This document shows positions 8,822 through 24,970 of a stretch of DNA of 32,000 nt, one piece after another. Source of the DNA: Candidatus Saccharimonadota bacterium (GTDB lineage: Bacteria > Patescibacteriota > Gracilibacteria > BD1-5 > UBA2023); assembly GCA_963706795.1 (NCBI GenBank), contig OY970170.1, positions 1-32,000 on the forward strand, given 5' to 3'. Numbering within the stretch: position 1 is the first letter of the stretch; every line of letters starts with the position of its first letter. The notes under the pieces were generated by a model that saw nothing but the letters and a program-made list of their open reading frames with translations, searched no databases and was not told the origin of the DNA. The position numbers and the translations under genes are program-made.

Positions 8822-8855
8822 AATTACTTTTTATTGAACTTAAAAGTAATTTTCT
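8822..8855 (+). terminator. AT-rich hairpin terminator after the Bat-like operon
   Basis: AATTACTTTT (8822-8831) pairs with AAAAGTAATT (8842-8851), a 10-bp stem followed by a T-run. It overlaps the last codons of the convergent gene. Confidence 0.45.
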
Positions 8856-9699
8856 CGGTATCTGAAGGTATTGGAAAGTATTCGTTCGCCTGTGGGTGAT
8901 CTTTATACCAAAGATTCCGAGACTCCGTAATATCTCTCTCTACTCAATCTAATGACGTAATAATTACAGCACTAGTAAGACATGTTCATTGTGATAGACA
9001 TCGATCAAGTTCGTTATTCACAAAAAGTATTCCACTTCCAGTTCAAAGATGACTCACATAATTCGAGACAATCTTAACATTTTTTGCACGAATCTTTCAG
9101 TGTCTTGGGATAAAAATCTGTGTACCCACTGGATATTGAACACGGTATGTTACTTCGCTCGACACTTCAGGAATAAAGTCTTTGATGTATCTATCCGTCT
9201 GAGTAGCACAGTAAATTGATGGATGAGCTTCATCTCATGAAGACATCTTAAACGTATTTATAGAGAATTTTTCATATTTTCTCTGGATAAATCAACCCTG
9301 CAGTATTTTTTTGATTCAAAAAATTCTGTCATCTTGTGAGTGTGTTATATCTGGAATATAGACACTATTCTGAGTCGCTTTCGCATCTTTTCTTTGTCCT
9401 ATGCACAGATATTCAAATTGCGTCGATTCCTGGATAGCACCACTTCAAGATATACCTGGAAGATTTACAATTCACCCACTGCCCTGATACGATGAATAGT
9501 ATGCATCCCACGAAATTTCGTTGAGTCACATCATTGTTTGCCCTGTCTGTAGAACCTTGTTGAACGGATTAGCATCTGCATTTAAGAGAATAGGCAGACT
9601 TAGTTCGTATTTTGAAGTAGCAAATGTGCATTGTGTTATTCAAATAAAAAGCACGAACACTAGAATATTTAAGGAGGTACGAATAGGGCTTATCATCAT
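8824..9699 (-). CDS. Hypothetical secreted protein, 291 aa, 11 in-frame TGA codons (absent from the supplied ORF track)
   Basis: On the minus strand, the frame with codon starts equal to 1 mod 3 has no TAA or TAG between 8827 and 9741. ATG-ATG at 9694-9699. N-terminal signal-like MMISPIRTSLNILVFVLFIGITQC. Stop TAA (plus-strand TTA 8824-8826). TGAs fall in Gly-plausible contexts (SGGIV, ISGSG, HLGTGSG). Confidence 0.65.
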
Positions 9700-9866: not shown

Positions 9867-10517
9867 ATGCTGACTTTAAAAAGAGCAGTAGCAAGTTTTG
9901 CAACAACCATTCTGGCCGCTACAGTATTTATGAGTAGCGCGTTAGCATATACCGATCTGCCTGTTAACGCTGCAAAATTTCAACTTTTTAGCGGTGGCTC
10001 ACCGGTTGACAATTTCTTTGCACCTGATAATGGTCAATTTGATAAGCTCATTCTCAAGGTGCAAGATAGCAATTCGTACCAGTTACAGAACAATCCAAAC
10101 TGGGTAAATGCCAATATGCCCGTCCCGATTTCAGTAGGTGGACGTGCAAGAGTTGGCAACGGTCAGTGTGTTGATTTTGTAAAGCACATGACCGGTAATT
10201 TTGCCTCATCAAGTAACTGGCTCAAAGGCGACCACGTCAGTGAATATTGGGATCCGAATGCACTTGTTGGCAAAGTGATTGCAACATTCAATTCAAGTGG
10301 CAATTACGACAATAGTCATGTTGCTATCGTTATAAGCGCATGGAAACGAAGCGGCAGTAATACTGTAACAGATGTCTGGGTAGTGGATGCAAATTTTGTG
10401 CCTGATCACGGCTTAACAGTATCGAAGCATGCACTTAGCACTACCGGAAGCGGTTATGTCGGTAATCTTAAGAACTACTATATCGTGAAAATGAACTGAC
10501 ATTTCCAAAAGTTGTAA
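9867..10517 (+). CDS. Secreted papain-fold (CHAP/NlpC-P60-like) cysteine peptidase candidate
   Basis: Signal peptide MLTLKRAVASFATTILAATVFMSSALA. Candidate nucleophile GNGQCVDFVKH and downstream NSHVAIVIS His. SD-like GGAAGGA about 9 nt upstream. No internal TGA. TGA at 10497 is followed by 5 codons and TAA 10515-10517. Confidence 0.65.
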
Positions 10518-12080: not shown

Positions 12081-12416
12081 TTAATCCGCTAAAAGTATTT
12101 GCTCTAGAGTAACCTTCAGTGCTGGCAAATCCTTCTCGATCGTTTCCCAAACTTCCTCGATATCTATCCCAATATAGTCATGAGCGATAAAATTTCGAAA
12201 ACCAATCATGTCACGATATGGTAACTGCTCGTCGTCTGGAAAGTATGTCTTGCACTTGTTTGCAGTTTCTCATAAATGCTGGAATTGCATGAGACATGCA
12301 TCTTTCACGAGATTATTCTGTGCGAAAGTTCGTGCATTGAGACCCGCACTATAGAGAGAAATAGCTCTTATAGCCTCAAACATCCAGAGAAAGTATATTT
12401 TTTTGTCCTTTTTCAT
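12081..12416 (-). CDS. hepT: HEPN-domain (DUF86) toxin of an MNT-HEPN toxin-antitoxin pair
   Basis: R-x4-H motif FRNFIAHDY. QHL-G-ETA with TGA 12270-12272 at the conserved (I/L)GE glycine. 111 aa. Stop TAA 12081-12083. Starts 5 nt after the MNT stop. Confidence 0.8.
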
Positions 12417-12421
12417 AGAAA

Positions 12422-12727
12422 CTAAAAAACAAACACTTTATCCTCGAGGATATTTTCACGAATCTCTGGGCGAATAGCCTTTTCAGAGATGAGATCAATA
12501 TTTCTACCAAGCTTCTCCTCGAGTGAGACTTTAAGGTTTCAGATATTGAAGAGTGTTATCGAACTATTTTCTTGCTTCTGGTAGATAAGATCGATGTCAC
12601 TTGCTGCAGTTTGCTCATTGCGTGAAAAAGACCCCGTCAGATAGACATGCTGTACATGATTCCGACGAAAAATATCTCGTACTTCTGACGAGCGGAGTGC
12701 TTCGAGTATATTGATCTGTTCTGTCAT
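12422..12727 (-). CDS. mntA: Minimal nucleotidyltransferase (MNT) antitoxin
   Basis: LTGSFSRNEQTAASDIDLIY (the G-S-x-x-R...D-x-D pol-beta NTase motif). TGA 12539-12541 read-through adds ...NLKVSLEEKLGRNIDLISEKAIRPEIRENILEDKVFVF. Stop TAG 12422-12424. Confidence 0.85.
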
Positions 12728-19739: not shown

Positions 19740-19849
19740 GTTGGTGTATTGTAGAGATGAGGAATGTTTACCAAAAACATTTTAGAGGCAAACCACTAAA
19801 GATCCTACTAAGATGAATTATCTTCCTCGAAAAGGAGGTAAAAATTCTG

Positions 19850-19909
19850 ATGAAAAAATCATTTTATTTAATACAATCGATAAGTCTGATTTTTAAAATT
19901 CATCCTTAA
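19850..19909 (+). CDS. 19-codon small ORF with a near-perfect Shine-Dalgarno (MKKSFYLIQSISLIFKIHP); speculative
   Basis: AAAGGAGGT at 19831-19839, 10 nt before ATG 19850. TAA 19907-19909 lies 4 nt before the next ATG, and that gene has no SD of its own. Confidence 0.25.
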   Translation: MKKSFYLIQSISLIFKIHP

Positions 19910-19913
19910 TAAG

Positions 19914-20435
19914 ATGCCGCGAGCAAAACAAATTGTAAAGCCAGGCGATGTCTTGGCAATCCCCCTCCCTGATGGTCGTTTTGCATTTGGGAGAATGTTC
20001 AAAGAAGGGGATATGTGAGTCTATGCAAAACTTGGTTCAACAATTGATGAAGTCCCAATCGGCTTTAGATTGTTTGCGTTCCAAACAGGTATTTACAAAG
20101 ATGTTGTGAGCAGTGGCATTTGGCCAAAGGTTGCTAAGGATCCATTTGAGAACCCCGAGCATAATTGGCCCGTACAACAATATGGAGGTCAATTATGGGA
20201 GAAATTTATTGACATATATGACCATGGCTACCCTATAAGAAAAGCATTACCAACAGAGGTTGTTGGCTGGGAAGCAGTTGGAGCATCAGATGTTCATCAC
20301 ATAGTTGATCGAATTTTAGCTGCATCGCAAAATATACGATCCAAATGGGAATTGAATGCACCTTGGCAAGTAGATTTTCTCGATCTCACTGATCCAGGTA
20401 ATCCAAAAAGAGTTGCTCCGCGAAAATTTGACTAA
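19914..20435 (+). CDS. Hypothetical protein; the N-terminus weakly recalls polymorphic-toxin immunity proteins (Imm26-like KPGDV..IPL.DGR..FGR)
   Basis: ATG 19914 is in frame with track ORF 20070..20435 through TGA 20016-20018. Stop TAA. The functional suggestion comes from a remembered motif only. Confidence 0.55.
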
Positions 20436-20671
20436 AACAAGACCCAAGCTCACAAAAGAAGTATTTCAAACTCGGTTTGACTAATTTGATCCTTCATGGT
20501 CAAATATATAGGCCGGCACGAAATATTTCCTTAGCACCAAGCGCCTATGGTTCTGTAAACAATACCAATAATCATACATGGGGACAAACTTGAAGTTTTA
20601 CTAGAATATCACGCTCTCGAAACTTTAATTCGGCTTCGAAAGCATTCATTTTTGTGATATTTCACACTTCC

Positions 20672-20709: not shown

Positions 20710-21861
20710 CTAGATGAGCAGCATGCCGTCTCCAAAGCTATAAAATCGATAATTCAGACGAATTGCCTCCGCGTAGAGTTCAAAGAGTTTTTCTCTTCAT
20801 AAAAAAGCACTCATCATGCACAAAAGCGTACTCTCAGGCAGATGAAAATTGGTCACGATTGCGTCGACGATGGCAAATTTGTGACCTGGATAGATAAATA
20901 TTTTTGTGCCCACACGGACACTCGTCGCATCAACCGAAAATACACGGATATTGTCCGAATCAGATATCCTCACATCCCAAAATGCGCGTACAGTGTCAGG
21001 AACTGTCACCTGATCTCGGATTGCACCCCAGAGTTTTGGAAGTGATTCGAGCGTGCGAACCATTGTGGTTCCGACTCAGATAACGCGTTTATTTTGCATC
21101 TTTAGATTCGCAATTCGTTCAAAAATATCGACGGGAATTTCAAAATATTCCTCGTGCATCTCATGATCGCGAATATCGGGCGAATTCATGATTTTAAAAG
21201 TCCCAATTCAGACGTGCAGTGTTGCAAAAGCAGTTTGAATATCCGCAGATGTAAGATCATCTAAAAGCTTCTGCGAAAAATGAAGCGAAGCCGTCGGCGC
21301 AGCGAGTGAACCATCTTTTTGAGCGAATACTGTTTGATAATCCTCCGCCTTTGCATCGTCGTATTCGATATAGGGTGGAAGTGGTAATCGTCCGTATTCC
21401 ATAAGGAAATCCATAATATTTCCACCACTCAAGAGCTCAAAAGTACGCCCCTCATAGGTGATCGCATCCACCTTAAAGCGATACTCCCCAAGCTCTACGA
21501 TCGTTCCGATTGGGAAATAGTCTCATGGATAGACCATAGATTCAAAATGCGTTTCATCATAAGATCTCAGATAGAGAAGCTCCGCGCCTCGTTCACGCAT
21601 AACTCCTGATGGCCGCGTGATCTTAAAGGCATCATTAATTATCCGCGCCGGCAGCACCTTCGAATCATTAAAAAAGAGCGTATCACCTGCAGCTAAAAGA
21701 TCAGGAAGATTTGCAAAAGATTGGTGCTCTGAACTCTCTGTCTTGCGATCATAAACAAACAGTTTTGCACTTTCGGCTGGATGAACAGGGACTTGTGCAA
21801 TCTGAGATGGTGGCAGATCGTAGCGATAGGACGCAAGATCAAAATCAGTTTCGTGTAACAT
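20710..21861 (-). CDS. queA: S-adenosylmethionine:tRNA ribosyltransferase-isomerase
   Basis: Three track ORFs share one frame, joined by TGAs at 21523, 21208, about 21076 and 20797. [55 protein letters not shown] (TGA at the invariant Gly), [23 protein letters not shown]. Start ATG 21859-21861. Stop TAG 20710-20712. Confidence 0.9.
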
Positions 21862-21917
21862 GCACGAAATATAAAGGAAGCAGGCATGTTTGCAAACAGA
21901 ATGCAAGTCACTTCCCT

Positions 21918-21946
21918 TTGACAAAAAATGAGCCTGCCCTATCAAT
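21918..21946 (+). promoter_or_regulatory. Candidate sigma70-like promoter for the 22056 gene
   Basis: TTGACA (21918-21923), 17-nt spacer, ATCAAT (21941-21946). Confidence 0.35.
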
Positions 21947-22055
21947 AGATGCAATCCACCATTATCTTTTGGGGAATATTGGAGTTCACCGAGTCTCACT
22001 ACTCGTTCCGCAATATTTTCCCATCTGAAGTGAATCGGATGGGAACGGAGTTAGA

Positions 22056-22445
22056 ATGGAAGAAATAAAAGAAGACATAGATGTATTAACACTTTTAAGG
22101 CAGGCACACGAGCCAAAAGAGCTCGTGATCCTCACGAAGTTAGATCTCATGATCATGCAGCAAACATTGCTTTGGATATTTGATGCATACGAAGGTGGCG
22201 AAGCAGCATATCAGTACACAATAGAAAATCTTGCATTCCAGTTTGAGCGCTACATAGCCCAGGCCCACCGTGAAAGATTGGAAGTAACTGCACACGATAT
22301 AGAAGTATTTAGCGCCATCATTGCCAATATTCGCAAGCATGTTTTCTCAGCATTTGATGAATCACACGAAAGGTATTCCCCAACTTTCTGCGATCTCATA
22401 GCTTCATTCGAAGAAAGATATACAGCAACAAAAATAGATATCTAA
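22056..22445 (+). CDS. Hypothetical acidic protein, predicted all-alpha (129 aa)
   Basis: Intact ORF with GGAG 7 nt upstream. No TGA. Stop TAA, followed by a strong terminator. Confidence 0.6.
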   Translation: MEEIKEDIDVLTLLRQAHEPKELVILTKLDLMIMQQTLLWIFDAYEGGEAAYQYTIENLAFQFERYIAQAHRERLEVTAHDIEVFSAIIANIRKHVFSAFDESHERYSPTFCDLIASFEERYTATKIDI

Positions 22446-22454
22446 TCCTTCCCT

Positions 22455-22486
22455 AAACCCGCCATATCCATGGCGGGTTTTTCTAT
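22455..22486 (+). terminator. Rho-independent terminator
   Basis: AAACCCGCCAT-ATC-CATGGCGGGTTTTT. Confidence 0.8.
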
Positions 22487-22510
22487 TCTTCGTAGGCTAT
22501 ACAGAAATAG

Positions 22511-22539
22511 TTGACACTAGTTCATTTAATTTTATAAAT
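22511..22539 (+). promoter_or_regulatory. Sigma70-like promoter for the 22612 gene
   Basis: TTGACA (22511-22516), 17-nt spacer, ATAAAT (22534-22539). AAAGGAG SD about 8 nt before ATG 22612. Confidence 0.5.
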
Positions 22540-22611
22540 TACCCACTCTATGCGGCACAAAACCTGCCTCAAATGACCAAAAATCCAAACCAATCCAGAA
22601 AGGAGCACTAA

Positions 22612-23343
22612 ATGGCTACCAAAAATAGACATGTTGTAGCAACATGGGAGCAGATTAACATCATACACAGAGCAATAAAAGAAGTGCTTGCGTATTGCCT
22701 ACGCAATAAAGGTAAAGCACACGGTATATTCCGTGCGACGATCGCAAATGTAGCCGATATCGAACGTGCACTCACTCAGTTAGTGGGCAAAAAACCACGA
22801 GCTGGTCTGGATTCTACTCATACAATCTCTGCTCTAGATTGGCTCATATATACTGCACCAATAACGGTATTTCTGTTCAAAGCTGTAACAAGGCCAGAGG
22901 ACAATAATACCAACCCTACGGTCGCCAATAAATTGAACGAATTACTCACGCAAGCCGTTCAAATAATCGAAGCGGTAGAAACAAAAGCAACCGTGTACTA
23001 TACGCTGTCCGAAAACCAGTTTAGTGGAATAATGGACATCTATGTCGCAATTGACCGCCTCTACACGGCATCTCCAGAAAAAAACGAACCGCTCGTTGAG
23101 TGTGTTCGTTCCGAACTCACGGCACTACAATTGAAGCTGGAGACAACAAACTCTCCGCTCGAAATGTCGCTCAAATCCTTCGGAAAATTTTATGTAATTA
23201 CCGTAGTATTCTCCGCTGAACTCAAGGCCAGCAGAACCCTTCAAAATCTTGCGCATCATGTGATTGTTCCAACATTGAATATCACATATAAGCAAAGAAT
23301 GGCCGATCATATAATACATAATCTGGTCAACCAACCCTGGTGA
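22612..23343 (+). CDS. Hypothetical alpha-helical protein (243 aa as drawn; ends at TGA, see findings)
   Basis: Good SD and promoter. No internal TGA. The ORF ends at TGA 23341-23343, with a terminator hairpin 43 nt downstream. Under code 25 the frame stays open to TAA at about 23704-23706. Confidence 0.55.
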   Translation: MATKNRHVVATWEQINIIHRAIKEVLAYCLRNKGKAHGIFRATIANVADIERALTQLVGKKPRAGLDSTHTISALDWLIYTAPITVFLFKAVTRPEDNNTNPTVANKLNELLTQAVQIIEAVETKATVYYTLSENQFSGIMDIYVAIDRLYTASPEKNEPLVECVRSELTALQLKLETTNSPLEMSLKSFGKFYVITVVFSAELKASRTLQNLAHHVIVPTLNITYKQRMADHIIHNLVNQPW

Positions 23344-23385
23344 TGTAAGCCATGTATACAAAACATCCGAGAGAAATCTCACTTC

Positions 23386-23418
23386 AAGCCGTACCCATTT
23401 AGATACGGCTTTCTTTTG
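23386..23418 (+). terminator. Rho-independent terminator
   Basis: AAGCCGTA-CCCATTTAGA-TACGGCTT followed by TCTTTTG. Confidence 0.55.
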
Positions 23419-23455
23419 CAGGAGCCATTCTTGCAATTTCTCGGTTTTCTATACT

Positions 23456-24970
23456 ATGTTGGCACTTTTCGCCGAGCACATTTTTATGAAAGCAAAAAAC
23501 GAACTTCCGTTCTTTTTGAGAGAGTGATTTCTCTCAAAGTTGCCAGCAGTCCTGCTCGTTGGAATCTTTATCGTGCCACTCGCACTCATCAAGATCAATT
23601 ATCAGATCGGACTCTTCTTTATTGCCTTTTATATCGCGTATTGGGCAATCAAGGTATTTGAGTCGTATTATTATGTTCTCAAGTCCTACATTGAGCTCGT
23701 AGATTTTAATAAGACAGACTTCTCTAAAAATGAATTCCTTTTGGAGAATGGCAAAAATATTCACCACGTCGTAGTTGTACCTATATATACCGAGCCATAC
23801 GACGTCATCGAAGAGAATGTCATGGCCATCCTCGAGAATGAATATGCATTCATGGATAAGGTAACCATCCTACTCGCAACCGAAGCTCGCGCTCCAGATG
23901 CCGAAAAGCACGCCCAGACAATCATCAAAAAATTTGCGAATTCTGCGGTCAAGATCGTCAATATTGTCCACCCAGAAAACATTCCTGGCCATGGTAAGGT
24001 GAAGGGGTCCAACATCACCTACGCCGTTCAAGAATACGAAAAACTCCAGACACTCGATCCACACAACACCTATATCTCAACGATTGATACGGATACCAAA
24101 GTCGAAAAGAGCTTCTTTTCGATCGTGACCTACTGTTTTGTGAGCACGGAATACCGTGATCAGGCGATCTACCAATATACGCCCGTCTACGCAAATAACT
24201 GGATCCATGGGACATTCTTTGCACGACTCATTGCGATGGGTACGACATTTTGGCAGCTTTTTGAGTCTCAAAATCCTGAGTTCTATCGCAATTTTGCGGT
24301 CTATGGACAATCACTTGAATGTCTCAAGCGCTCTGACTATTGGTCACGAACTTCGATCGTAGAAGACGGCCTTCAGTACTGGAGAAGCTATTTTGCATGG
24401 GATGGAATGTTCCGCATCGTCAACGTTCCTGCTGTATGTCGCATGGACCTCGTAGATGAAGAAAATCTCTGGAAGACTGTTAAATCCCAATACAAACAAC
24501 TCAGACGCTGGTCATGGGGATGTACAGATATCGAATTCGTTCTTCCACAATTTTATAAGAACAAGAAGATCCGATTTGGAGAAAAAATCCGTAAATCCGT
24601 CTATCTCATCCAAAATCATCTTTTTTGGGCTGGCTGAGCATTTATGCTGTTCTTTATCGGCTATATTCCAGGGATTTCTGAGAGTCTACGTAACTCGATC
24701 GCAATCCTCACGGTCCCACTCGCAAGCTCAATCATATTTACGACGCTCTTTGCTACGGTCGTATTCCCAAGCTTCATGTCGATCCATATCATGAAGCGGT
24801 ATACAAAATTCCGAAAGCGAGATTACATCTATAATATCTTGCAGTGGCTCGTCGTGCCGCCGCTCACACTCACACTCTTTTCGCTTCCTGCTATCGAGAG
24901 TCAAATTCGTCTCTTCCTTGGAAAGCGTATCGACCATTTCGAGACTACTCAAAAAATGAAACGTAAATAG
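23456..24970 (+). CDS. Integral-membrane processive family-2 glycosyltransferase (cellulose/chitin-synthase-like); start at 23456 or 23486
   Basis: VVVVPIYTEPYDV, GKVKGSNITYAV (K-A-G-N-like), TIDTDT (DxD), VEDGLQ (ED), QYKQLRRWSWG (QxxRW). N- and C-terminal TM bundles. TGAs at 23525 and 24635 join the fragments. Stop TAA 24968-24970. Confidence 0.85.

What the first reader, a model, noticed from the sequence alone, without database searches (positions are those of the whole stretch)
22056..23706. TGA-free two-gene cassette with its own promoters; the second gene ends at TGA followed by a terminator, conflicting with the recoded genome
Genes 22056..22445 and 22612..23343 lie between queA and the GT2 synthase.
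- Each has a TTGACA-N17-(A/T)TnAAT promoter and an SD.
- 22056..22445 is followed by a strong intrinsic terminator and 22612..23343 by a weaker hairpin.
- Neither has an internal TGA.
- Both use mixed Leu/Ile codons (CTA, TTA, ATA), unlike the CTC/ATC-dominated core genes.
- Neither encodes a recognisable domain.
The second ORF stops at TGA 23341-23343, with a terminator hairpin 43 nt later. Under UGA=Gly the frame would run about 120 more codons of Cys/Arg-rich, junk-looking sequence. That extension crosses the terminator and overlaps the GT2 start. This suggests recent acquisition from a standard-code donor (phage or other mobile DNA). Alternatively it reflects context-dependent UGA termination. 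The two proteins are candidates for an uncharacterised accessory module, for example defence or toxin-antitoxin-like.
Basis: partly seen in the sequence, partly recalled or inferred. Interest (0 to 1): 0.7.

Follow-up and report, generated by a model that had tools for sequence, protein, structure and literature searches.

The report
Orphan gene insertion with illusory stop
A 1.4-kb piece of orphan DNA carrying two unknown genes has been inserted between two conserved neighbouring genes of a bacterium that reads TGA as glycine, and the second gene's "TGA stop" most likely lies in old host spacer DNA, so it is probably not a working stop signal and not an exception to the genetic code.

Summary
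The genome uses code 25: queA's in-frame TGAs align with invariant Gly in standard-code QueA.

- **Insertion.** Four independent Gracilibacteria relatives have queA directly beside the GT2 gene, with a spacer of about 215 nt or less. The cassette (about 21901-23286) is therefore an insertion seen only in this genome.
- **Orphans.** ORF1 and ORF2 have no homologues apart from one weak helicase-repeat match. They hit no domain, phage, plasmid or defence family.
- **Foreign signals.** Both have TTGACA promoters and canonical Shine-Dalgarno sites, against 1 of 23 native start sites surveyed. ATA makes up 47% of their Ile codons, against 10% in native genes.
- **Weak evidence.** "TGA-free" means little, because there are only 8 Gly codons (P about 0.4). 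Tetranucleotide composition is ordinary.
- **The TGA.** Homology to the relative's ancestral spacer resumes at about 23287, inside ORF2. Its last 18 codons and the TGA therefore appear to be host spacer DNA.

ORF2 is best read as a foreign ORF fused to host sequence, with no stop the host can use before TAA 23707. Nothing supports context-dependent UGA termination or a toxin-antitoxin or defence role. The finding is of modest interest.

The parts
20710..21861 (-). queA, the native left flank. It carries 4 in-frame TGA codons and looks leaderless, with its promoter at about 21868-21896.
   Evidence: Pfam Queuosine_synth, E 8.6e-101. Its TGA codons align with Gly in 12 standard-code QueA proteins. 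Promoter-like site.
21901..23286 (+). Inserted block of about 1.39 kb seen only in this genome. Boundaries are good to about +/-10 nt.
   Evidence: Absent from L002/L082, L083/L084, L086 and L090, where queA and GT2 are adjacent. Junctions come from the alignments.
21918..21945 (+). ORF1 promoter-like site: TTGACA-N16-TATCAA.
22018..22045 (+). 11-bp hairpin in the ORF1 5' leader, immediately before the SD GGAG at 22047-22050.
   Evidence: (I21).
22056..22445 (+). ORF1: 129 aa, pI 4.7, predicted all-helical, an orphan, TAA stop.
   Evidence: Coding log-odds are positive only in this frame.
22455..22485 (+). Intrinsic terminator of ORF1: 11-bp GC-rich stem plus T-tract.
   Evidence: z = -6.0.
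22511..22538 (+). ORF2 promoter-like site: TTGACA-N16-TATAAA.
22600..22605 (+). ORF2 Shine-Dalgarno site AAGGAG, spacer 6.
   Evidence: Only 1 of 23 native start sites surveyed has any SD-like core.
22612..23286 (+). Foreign part of ORF2 (codons 1-225). Residues 29-77 weakly resemble a repeat of about 72 aa in the C-terminus of a ResIII/DEAD helicase.
   Evidence: An open stretch of 225 codons is reached by 4 of 1000 shuffles under code 25 and 0 of 1000 under code 11. phmmer E 2.2e-6 to P0003.
23287..23343 (+). Last 18 codons of ORF2 plus TGA 23341-23343. This stretch is homologous to the ancestral queA-GT2 spacer of the closest relative.
   Evidence: Collinear global alignment scores 8. Shuffles reach at most 7 (0 of 2000 reach 8), and 1 of 9082 other windows reaches it. 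Alignments.
23344..23709 (+). Code-25 read-through of ORF2: 122 codons, then TAA 23707-23709. It is made of ancestral spacer plus the out-of-frame 5' end of GT2.
   Evidence: The same frame has two stops in L002/L082. Coding log-odds are -0.08 here, against +0.155 in the GT2 frame.
23386..23417 (+). Terminator-like hairpin (8-bp stem, 10-nt loop) followed by a T-tract. The stem comes from a 15-nt indel specific to this genome, placed next to an ancestral T-tract.
   Evidence: The hairpin is absent from L002/L082, L083 and L086.
23456..24970 (+). GT2-family glycosyltransferase, the native right flank. Start is ATG 23456 or 23486. It has in-frame TGA codons.
   Evidence: Pfam Glyco_trans_2_3. 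359 homologues, those with names being Gracilibacteria proteins. Called as 504 aa by a code-25 gene caller.

Best explanation
A block of about 1.39 kb of orphan DNA (about 21901-23286) was inserted, in the lineage of this genome only, into the short spacer between the divergently transcribed native genes queA and GT2 of a code-25 (UGA=Gly) Gracilibacterium.

The block carries two separate transcription units. Their signals are unlike the host's: a perfect TTGACA -35 box, leaders of about 70-100 nt, and canonical Shine-Dalgarno sites. The host's own genes lack SD sites and mostly look leaderless.

ORF1 is complete, with a TAA stop and a strong terminator. ORF2 has no stop codon of its own inside the insert. 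Its frame runs across the right junction into ancestral spacer DNA. The first standard-code stop there is a TGA that the closest relative also has, as GTGA.

In this host that TGA should be read as glycine. ORF2 would then give either a 365-aa chimera ending at TAA 23707, or, if transcription ends at hairpin 23386-23417, a non-stop mRNA. I infer that such an mRNA would be handled by ribosome rescue.

The "TGA stop conflicting with the recoded genome" is therefore an artefact of reading a junction-spanning ORF with the standard code. It is not a functional stop.

**Shown:** the code, the insertion, orphan status, the differences in signals and codon use, and the junction homology (the last statistically, from one relative species).
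**Inferred:** a foreign donor that uses SD sites, the fate of the ORF2 product, and the absence of function.
For: **Code 25**
- ORFs of 100 codons or more total 10,714 aa with TGA as a stop and 25,479 aa with TGA as sense.
- Three of queA's four in-frame TGAs align with (near-)invariant Gly in 12 standard-code QueA proteins; the fourth aligns with Ala, Ser or Cys.
- All 21 complete native genes tabulated end in TAA or TAG.

**Insertion**
- The queA-GT2 spacer is about 215 nt in L002/L082 (GT2 90-91% identical), about 53 nt in L083/L084 (80%), about 135 nt in L086 (73%) and about 150 nt in L090 (78%). In the window it is about 1.6 kb.
- The sequence is not an assembly error. An independent Logan assembly is 100% identical over 10,413 nt.

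**Right junction**
- The best local match of the relative's spacer anywhere in the insert lies at the collinear position, 23287-23314.
- The collinear global alignment beats all 2000 shuffles and all but 1 of 9082 other windows.
- With the insert excised, the window aligns along the relative's whole spacer.
- The extension frame has stops in the relative.

**Foreign-style signals**
- SD sites occur on 2 of 2 cassette genes against 1 of 23 native start sites surveyed.
- About half of the native genes have a TAnnnT box 0-9 nt before the ATG.
- Two of the window's four TTGACA-N15-18-TAnnnW sites lie in the cassette.
- ATA/Ile is 0.57 in ORF1 and 0.45 in ORF2, the highest values in the window.

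**Real coding sequence**
- Only the annotated frames have positive coding log-odds.
- ORF2's length is reached by 4 of 1000 shuffles.

**Orphan status**
- Only self-hits among 5.8 billion proteins.
- One weak hit among 1.84 billion representatives.
- Nothing in IMG/VR, JGI metagenomes, phages or plasmids.

**Literature**
- prfB was not detected in any BD1-5 genome available to PMC6851277. That paper also cites proteomic validation of UGA=Gly (Hanke et al. 2014).
Against: - The junction at about 23287 rests on one relative species (L002 and L082 are nearly identical). Only the left 28 nt of the alignment are strong (23 of 28 matches). The local score alone is reached by 25 of 300 shuffles.
- If the common ancestor already had the cassette and the sister lineage deleted it, the shared 57 nt could be ORF2's native 3' end.
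- Tetranucleotide composition and overall codon log-odds fall within the host range. The donor could therefore be a related code-25 organism or element, or the insert could be old.
- No integrase, transposase, terminal repeats or target-site duplication explain how the DNA got in.
- No expression data exist. ORF2 may be translated and tolerated as a 365-aa protein.
Confidence: 0.55

Rival explanations
1. An intact two-gene cassette came recently from a standard-code donor (a phage or other mobile DNA). TGA 23341 is ORF2's original stop and hairpin 23386-23417 is its original terminator. In the host the stop is misread as Gly.
For: - The cassette is an insertion.
- It has SD-led, consensus-promoter units unlike the host's genes.
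- Its Ile, Arg and Leu codon use is atypical.
- It has no in-frame TGA.
- A hairpin plus T-tract follows the TGA.
Against: - The 33 nt between the TGA and the hairpin (23352-23385) are clearly ancestral: about 30 of 33 match the relative.
- The T-tract is also ancestral, and the hairpin stem is a separate 15-nt indel. The terminator therefore did not arrive as part of a contiguous cassette.
- Homology to the spacer probably reaches back to 23287.
- The absence of TGA has P about 0.4.
- No phage, plasmid or other homologue is known.
Confidence: 0.2
2. The cassette is older. It was present in the common ancestor of this genome and the Deming_bin.574 lineage, and the latter then deleted it, leaving the last 57 nt or so of ORF2 as a relic. 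Donor and code remain open, and ORF2's TGA region is native to the cassette.
For: - The L002 spacer (about 215 nt) is longer than those of the outgroups L083 (53 nt) and L086 (about 135 nt), so it has room for a relic.
- The composition looks ameliorated.
Against: - It needs a gain plus a loss instead of a single gain.
- L086 shares the TATACAAA anchor and an ATAT palindrome in the equivalent part of its spacer, which suggests this DNA is ancestral spacer.
- ORF2 would still lack a host-valid stop after a long residence, which is hard to reconcile with function.
Confidence: 0.12
3. ORF1, ORF2 or both are not expressed genes in this organism. The insert is decaying non-functional DNA, a fragment of a once-coding foreign segment, and the ORFs are simply still open.
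For: - Both are orphans with singleton clusters.
- AlphaFold confidence is low (pLDDT 53 and 43).
- A code-25 gene caller did not call ORF2.
- ORF1's length alone is unremarkable in a code with two stops.
- ORF2 lacks a usable stop.
Against: - The promoter, SD and terminator signals are intact and of high quality.
- Coding log-odds are frame-specific.
- ORF2's open length is significant.

This rival overlaps with the best explanation as far as ORF2's present function goes.
Confidence: 0.1
4. UGA has a context-dependent dual meaning. At 23341 it terminates translation despite the UGA=Gly reassignment, giving a genuine 243-aa protein.
For: Only the arrangement itself: an ORF with good signals, a TGA, and then a hairpin with a T-tract 43 nt later.
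Against: - TGA is a frequent sense codon at conserved Gly positions.
- No other gene in the window needs a TGA stop.
- prfB was not detected in any BD1-5 genome available to PMC6851277.
- The TGA sits in ancestral non-coding DNA.
- The ORF is unique, so there is no conservation to appeal to.
Confidence: 0.03

Closest known systems
Strain- or species-specific orphan-gene islets inserted into intergenic spacers of otherwise syntenic genomes
   Same: - A short block is absent from syntenic relatives.
- Its genes have no homologues.
- Its synonymous codon use is atypical.
- It carries its own promoters and a terminator.
- The same window holds two more such insertions relative to Deming_bin.574: a HepT/MntA pair (12081-12727) and an Imm26 gene (19914-20435).
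   Different: - Those two comparators use the host's conventions: in-frame TGA as sense, TAA/TAG stops, and no SD.
- This cassette has SD-led genes, no TGA sense codon, and an ORF that runs off the insert without a host-valid stop.
Genes transferred between organisms with different genetic codes, where a reassigned stop codon acts as a barrier to transfer (my own knowledge of the general concept)
   Same: It is a code-25 recipient, and an incoming ORF's only nearby stop would be UGA, which the recipient reads as Gly. The predicted result is a C-terminal extension or a non-stop message.
   Different: - The donor's code is not established here.
- The TGA appears to belong to recipient DNA rather than to the incoming gene.
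Type II toxin-antitoxin modules and small defence cassettes
   Same: Two small adjacent same-strand genes of unknown function sit in an accessory insertion.
   Different: - They are not co-transcribed. A strong terminator (z = -6) and a second promoter separate them.
- PADLOC, Pfam and NCBIfam give no match.
- ORF2 is large for such a module (243 aa or more).
C-terminal repeats of about 72 aa in the ResIII/DEAD helicase P0003 (GCA_038055315.1)
   Same: ORF2 residues 29-77 align with three successive repeats at 24-39% identity. phmmer gives E 2.2e-6 against 1.84 billion proteins.
   Different: - This is a single hit.
- ORF2 has no helicase domain.
- The repeat has no Pfam family or known function.
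- ORF2 itself shows no significant internal repeats.

Membership tests
Code-25 (UGA=Gly) genome | In-frame TGA in conserved genes at positions that are Gly in standard-code homologues | tested here: met
   In queA, 3 of 4 TGA codons align with (near-)invariant Gly in 12 homologues. Native genes are fragmented under table 11.
Code-25 (UGA=Gly) genome | Absence of release factor 2 (prfB) and presence of tRNA-Gly(UCA) | not testable with these tools
   Only 32 kb of the genome is available and it has no tRNA genes. The literature reports that prfB was not detected in any BD1-5 genome available at the time (PMC6851277).
Horizontally acquired or lineage-specific insertion (genomic islet) | Absent from relatives at a locus with conserved flanking synteny | tested here: met
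   queA and GT2 are adjacent in L002/L082, L083/L084, L086 and L090.
Horizontally acquired or lineage-specific insertion (genomic islet) | Composition or codon use different from the host's | tested here: inconclusive
   Ile, Arg and Leu codon choice differs strongly (p = 2e-9, 0.003 and 0.03). Tetranucleotide distance is ordinary (27th percentile) and codon log-odds lie within the native range.
Horizontally acquired or lineage-specific insertion (genomic islet) | Expression signals different from the host's | tested here: met
   SD sites on 2 of 2 cassette genes against 1 of 23 native start sites surveyed. Native genes mostly have a -10 box directly before the ATG.
Standard-code gene stranded in a recoded genome | The TGA is the gene's own stop, that is, homologues end at that position | tested here: not met
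   No homologues exist. The TGA and the 18 codons before it align with the relative's ancestral spacer. Support is statistical and comes from one relative species.
Standard-code gene stranded in a recoded genome | Significant avoidance of in-frame TGA | tested here: inconclusive
   0 of 8 Gly codons are TGA. The expected share is 11%, so P is about 0.4.
Insertion sequence, integrative element or prophage remnant | Transposase, integrase or phage genes; terminal inverted repeats; target-site duplication; tRNA attachment site | tested here: not met
   - No such genes in the insert or elsewhere in the window.
- No terminal repeats.
- No tRNA genes.
- No PHROGs, phage or IMG/VR hits.
Type II toxin-antitoxin module | Bicistronic operon of two small genes with homology to known toxin or antitoxin folds | tested here: not met
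   A terminator at 22455-22485 and a second promoter lie between the ORFs. Pfam, PADLOC and NCBIfam give no hits.
Known anti-phage defence systems (PADLOC) | Match to a defence-system protein model | tested here: not met
   0 families at E up to 1 for both proteins.

The most novel reading that the evidence does not exclude
UGA at 23341 really does terminate translation of ORF2 in an organism that otherwise reads UGA as glycine and lacks RF2. This would be context-dependent dual decoding of UGA in a code-25 bacterium, perhaps helped by the downstream hairpin or by the end of the mRNA.
Probability: 0.03. Interest if true: 0.85.

Novelty: new member of a known kind. Interest (0 to 1): 0.3.

Why it matters
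- The apparent exception to code 25 has an ordinary explanation. An ORF in inserted DNA runs into host spacer, and a gene finder or reader using the standard code closes it at the first TGA. This is a practical warning for annotating recoded genomes, where "genes that end in TGA" may be junction artefacts.
- The locus is also a clean small example of gene gain in a reduced CPR genome with no mobile-element hallmarks. The incoming DNA uses a different style of translation initiation from the host.
- If the donor could be shown to use the standard code, the locus would illustrate how code reassignment disables incoming genes.
- The two proteins remain uncharacterised orphans. Nothing ties them to defence or toxin-antitoxin functions.

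Tried and rejected
1. **Homology searches for both ORFs.**
   - 5.8-billion-protein word-indexed search: only self-hits.
   - Full phmmer of ORF2 against 1.84 billion representatives: only one weak helicase-repeat hit.
   - No hit in IMG/VR by protein or by degenerate DNA pattern, JGI metagenomes (ORF2 only), phages or plasmids.
   - Only sub-threshold matches, if any, in Pfam, PHROGs, PADLOC, NCBIfam and PDB sequences.
2. **Structure.** Single-sequence AlphaFold models were poor (pLDDT 52.8 and 43.1). Foldseek of the ORF1 model against PDB gave nothing below E = 2.6. The ORF2 model was not searched because it is too unreliable.
3. **My own idea of tandem beta-alpha-alpha (RHH-like) repeats shared by ORF1 and ORF2.** Rejected. 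The two ORFs show no similarity, ORF2 has no significant internal repeats, and only ORF1's two halves show marginal similarity (z = 3.7).
4. **Mobile-element termini or target-site duplication.** None was found. AGAATG occurs near both junctions, but it does not fit a duplication model and is within chance.
5. **RNA families in the leaders and spacers.** None.
6. **GT2 scan of JGI metagenome contigs for more relatives.** Nothing found. Relatives came instead from GTDB genomes and from protein-based contig look-ups.
7. **The open 122-codon extension as a possible sign of selection.** Rejected, because open stretches of that length are common with a two-stop code.
8. **An error of mine.** In one search I used a wrong queA frame and inflated the TGA count.


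Full report
**1. What the genome is**

With TGA as a stop, the window's ORFs of 100 codons or more total 10,714 aa. With TGA as sense they total 25,479 aa, and fragmented genes become whole: queA, gyrB, an ABC-F ATPase, pyrH, rsgA and a GT2 glycosyltransferase. queA has four in-frame TGAs. Three align with invariant or near-invariant Gly in 12 standard-code QueA proteins, and the fourth aligns with Ala, Ser or Cys. The GT2 homologues that carry names are "Candidatus Gracilibacteria" proteins. This is therefore a code-25 Gracilibacterium. Published work did not detect prfB in any BD1-5 genome then available and cites proteomic validation of UGA=Gly (PMC6851277). All 21 complete native gene models tabulated in the window end in TAA or TAG.

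**2. Checking the observation**

- ORF1 runs 22056-22445 (129 aa, TAA stop). Its promoter is TTGACA-N16-TATCAA, its SD is GGAG with spacer 5, and an 11-bp terminator follows (-17.6 kcal/mol, z = -6.0).
- ORF2 runs 22612-23343 (243 aa, TGA stop). Its promoter is TTGACA-N16-TATAAA and its SD is AAGGAG with spacer 6. An 8-bp hairpin with a T-tract starts 43 nt after the TGA.
- Under code 25, ORF2 runs 122 more codons to TAA 23707-23709, across the GT2 start.
- The codon-usage remark is correct and strong for Ile: ATA is 47% in the cassette against 10% in native genes (p = 2e-9). Arg and Leu also differ.

Two elements carry no statistical weight.

- The cassette has only 8 Gly codons, so having none as TGA has P of about 0.4.
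- Long open alternative frames are common with two stop codons (about 20%).

Overall codon log-odds (z = -1.1 and -1.8) and tetranucleotide composition (27th percentile) fall inside the native range.

Both ORFs nonetheless look like real coding sequence. Only their own frames score positive. ORF2's open length is reached by 4 of 1000 shuffles under code 25 and by none under code 11. The sequence is not an assembly artefact, because an independent Logan assembly of run ERR12037365 is identical over 10,413 nt.

**3. The cassette is an insertion seen only in this genome**

- The closest genome found is Deming_bin.574 (L001 and L002; L082 is nearly identical). Its QueA is 71-75% and its GT2 90-91% identical to the window's, and it is syntenic across the window. 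There, however, the queA and GT2 starts are only about 215 nt apart.
- The same direct adjacency holds in three further lineages: L083/L084 (GT2 80%, about 53 nt), L086 (73%, about 135 nt) and L090 (78%, about 150 nt).
- One gain on the branch leading to this genome is the most parsimonious history.
- Neither ORF has a relative in any fetched locus, in its own genome's proteins, or in any database searched.
- The single exception is a weak match of ORF2 residues 29-77 to an uncharacterised repeat of about 72 aa at the C-terminus of a ResIII/DEAD helicase (E 2.2e-6).

**4. Where the insert ends**

On the left, homology to the relative stops just past queA's -35 box, at about 21897-21900.

On the right, blastn first suggested that homology resumes at 23352, nine bases after the TGA. 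A closer look moves the junction further left.

- The best local match of the relative's spacer anywhere in the 1.49 kb lies exactly at the collinear position, 23287-23314, with 23 of 28 matches.
- A global alignment of the relative's 62 nt with the 65 nt ending at 23351 scores 8. All 2000 shuffles stay at 7 or below, and only 1 of 9082 other windows reaches 8.
- With 21906-23282 removed, the window aligns along the relative's whole spacer.
- The relative has GTGA where the window has GGTGA.

The last 18 codons of ORF2 (YKQRMADHIIHNLVNQPW) and its "stop" are therefore most likely ancestral non-coding spacer.

The hairpin downstream did not arrive with the cassette either. Clearly ancestral sequence flanks it on both sides. 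Its stem comes from a 15-nt indel specific to this genome, and it uses an ancestral T-tract. The frame of the 122-codon extension has two stops in the relative and scores as non-coding.

**5. How the cassette differs from the host**

- Of 23 native start sites surveyed, one has an SD-like core. About half have a TAnnnT box 0-9 nt before the ATG, which is a leaderless layout.
- Both cassette genes have canonical SD sites behind leaders of about 70-100 nt and perfect TTGACA boxes. Two of the window's four such promoter matches are theirs.
- Two other small accessory insertions in the same window, relative to Deming_bin.574, follow the host's conventions: TGA sense codons, TAA/TAG stops and no SD. 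These are a HepT/MntA pair and an Imm26 gene.
- The cassette is the odd one out, which points to a donor with SD-led initiation. The donor's genetic code cannot be read from the data.

**6. Most likely mechanism (confidence about 0.55)**

Foreign DNA carrying one complete gene (ORF1) and one ORF that lacks its own stop (ORF2) was inserted by illegitimate recombination into the divergent queA/GT2 promoter spacer. In this host, ribosomes on ORF2 mRNA should read UGA 23341 as Gly. They would then either continue to TAA 23707, giving a 365-aa chimera, or run off the end of a transcript terminated at about 23417, giving a non-stop message. I infer that ribosome rescue would handle such a message. 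The hairpin specific to this genome may shield the GT2 promoter from read-through; that is also an inference. ORF2 is thus probably a chimeric or non-functional product. ORF1 may be expressed normally, but its function is unknown.

**7. Rivals**

Weakened by the ancestral DNA between the TGA and the hairpin, and by the junction at about 23287.
- **An older insertion lost in the sister lineage (0.12).** This would make the shared 57 nt native to ORF2. It needs an extra event, and ORF2 would still lack a usable stop.
- **Decaying non-genic DNA (0.1).**
- **Context-dependent UGA termination (0.03).** There is no positive evidence for it.

A toxin-antitoxin or defence role is not supported. The ORFs are separate transcription units and match no model.

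**8. Verdict**

The headline conflict with the recoded genome dissolves, because the TGA is probably host spacer sequence at the insertion junction. This is a new instance of a known kind of feature, a lineage-specific orphan islet. It has instructive value for annotating recoded genomes, and its interest is modest (0.3).

Noticed in passing
window 19754-20463 (gene 19914-20435, + strand): An Imm26-family immunity-protein gene (Pfam PF15428, E 5e-6) is also an insertion relative to Deming_bin.574. The relative has 62 nt where the window has 710 nt, between the ABC-F gene and the 3' end of queA. The gene has one in-frame TGA, GC3 of 0.31 and ATA/Ile of 0.33. L083 carries a different 318-aa gene at the same spot, so this spacer is a hot spot for small gene gains.
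   Followed up: partly
window 12081-12727 (- strand): A HepT (PF01934, E 7e-21) and MntA-like nucleotidyltransferase pair, a toxin-antitoxin-type module, lies next to gyrB. In Deming_bin.574, 22 nt (L001 7836-7858) stand in place of about 817 nt of the window. Both genes contain in-frame TGA and lack an SD, so they conform to the host's conventions.
   Followed up: partly
window 8824-9699 (- strand): A 291-codon gene of unknown function with a signal-peptide-like N-terminus has 11 in-frame TGA codons (3.8% of its codons). Its GC content is 36%, and it is the strongest tetranucleotide outlier in the window. It is conserved in Deming_bin.574 (79% identity).
   Followed up: no
whole window (starts of native genes): Native genes lack Shine-Dalgarno motifs. 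About half have a TAnnnT (-10-like) box 0-9 nt before the ATG, for example sdr 29777, GT2 23456, queA 21861 and abcf 19739. This suggests widespread leaderless mRNAs in this Gracilibacterium.
   Followed up: partly
L088 and L089 (ENA metagenome contigs): A more distant relative (GT2 78% identical, ABC-F 65%) has no queA at this locus. There the ABC-F gene lies directly next to GT2, about 300 nt away.
   Followed up: no
window 23456-23527: The GT2 start is ambiguous. ATG 23456 sits directly after a TATACT box and is conserved in L002. ATG 23486 matches the start in L083. The 10 codons between them differ from L002 by an in-frame 3-nt indel and by substitutions that are mostly non-synonymous. 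An in-frame TGA follows at 23525-23527.
   Followed up: no
window 23304-23327; L002 about 9922-9945; L086 spacer: The queA-GT2 spacer of the relatives holds an ATAT-centred palindrome: GACCATAT-AAA-ATATGGCC in L002, and CGAATAT-ACCC-ATATCG in L086. It may be an operator for the divergent promoters. In the window it is degenerate and lies inside the end of ORF2.
   Followed up: no
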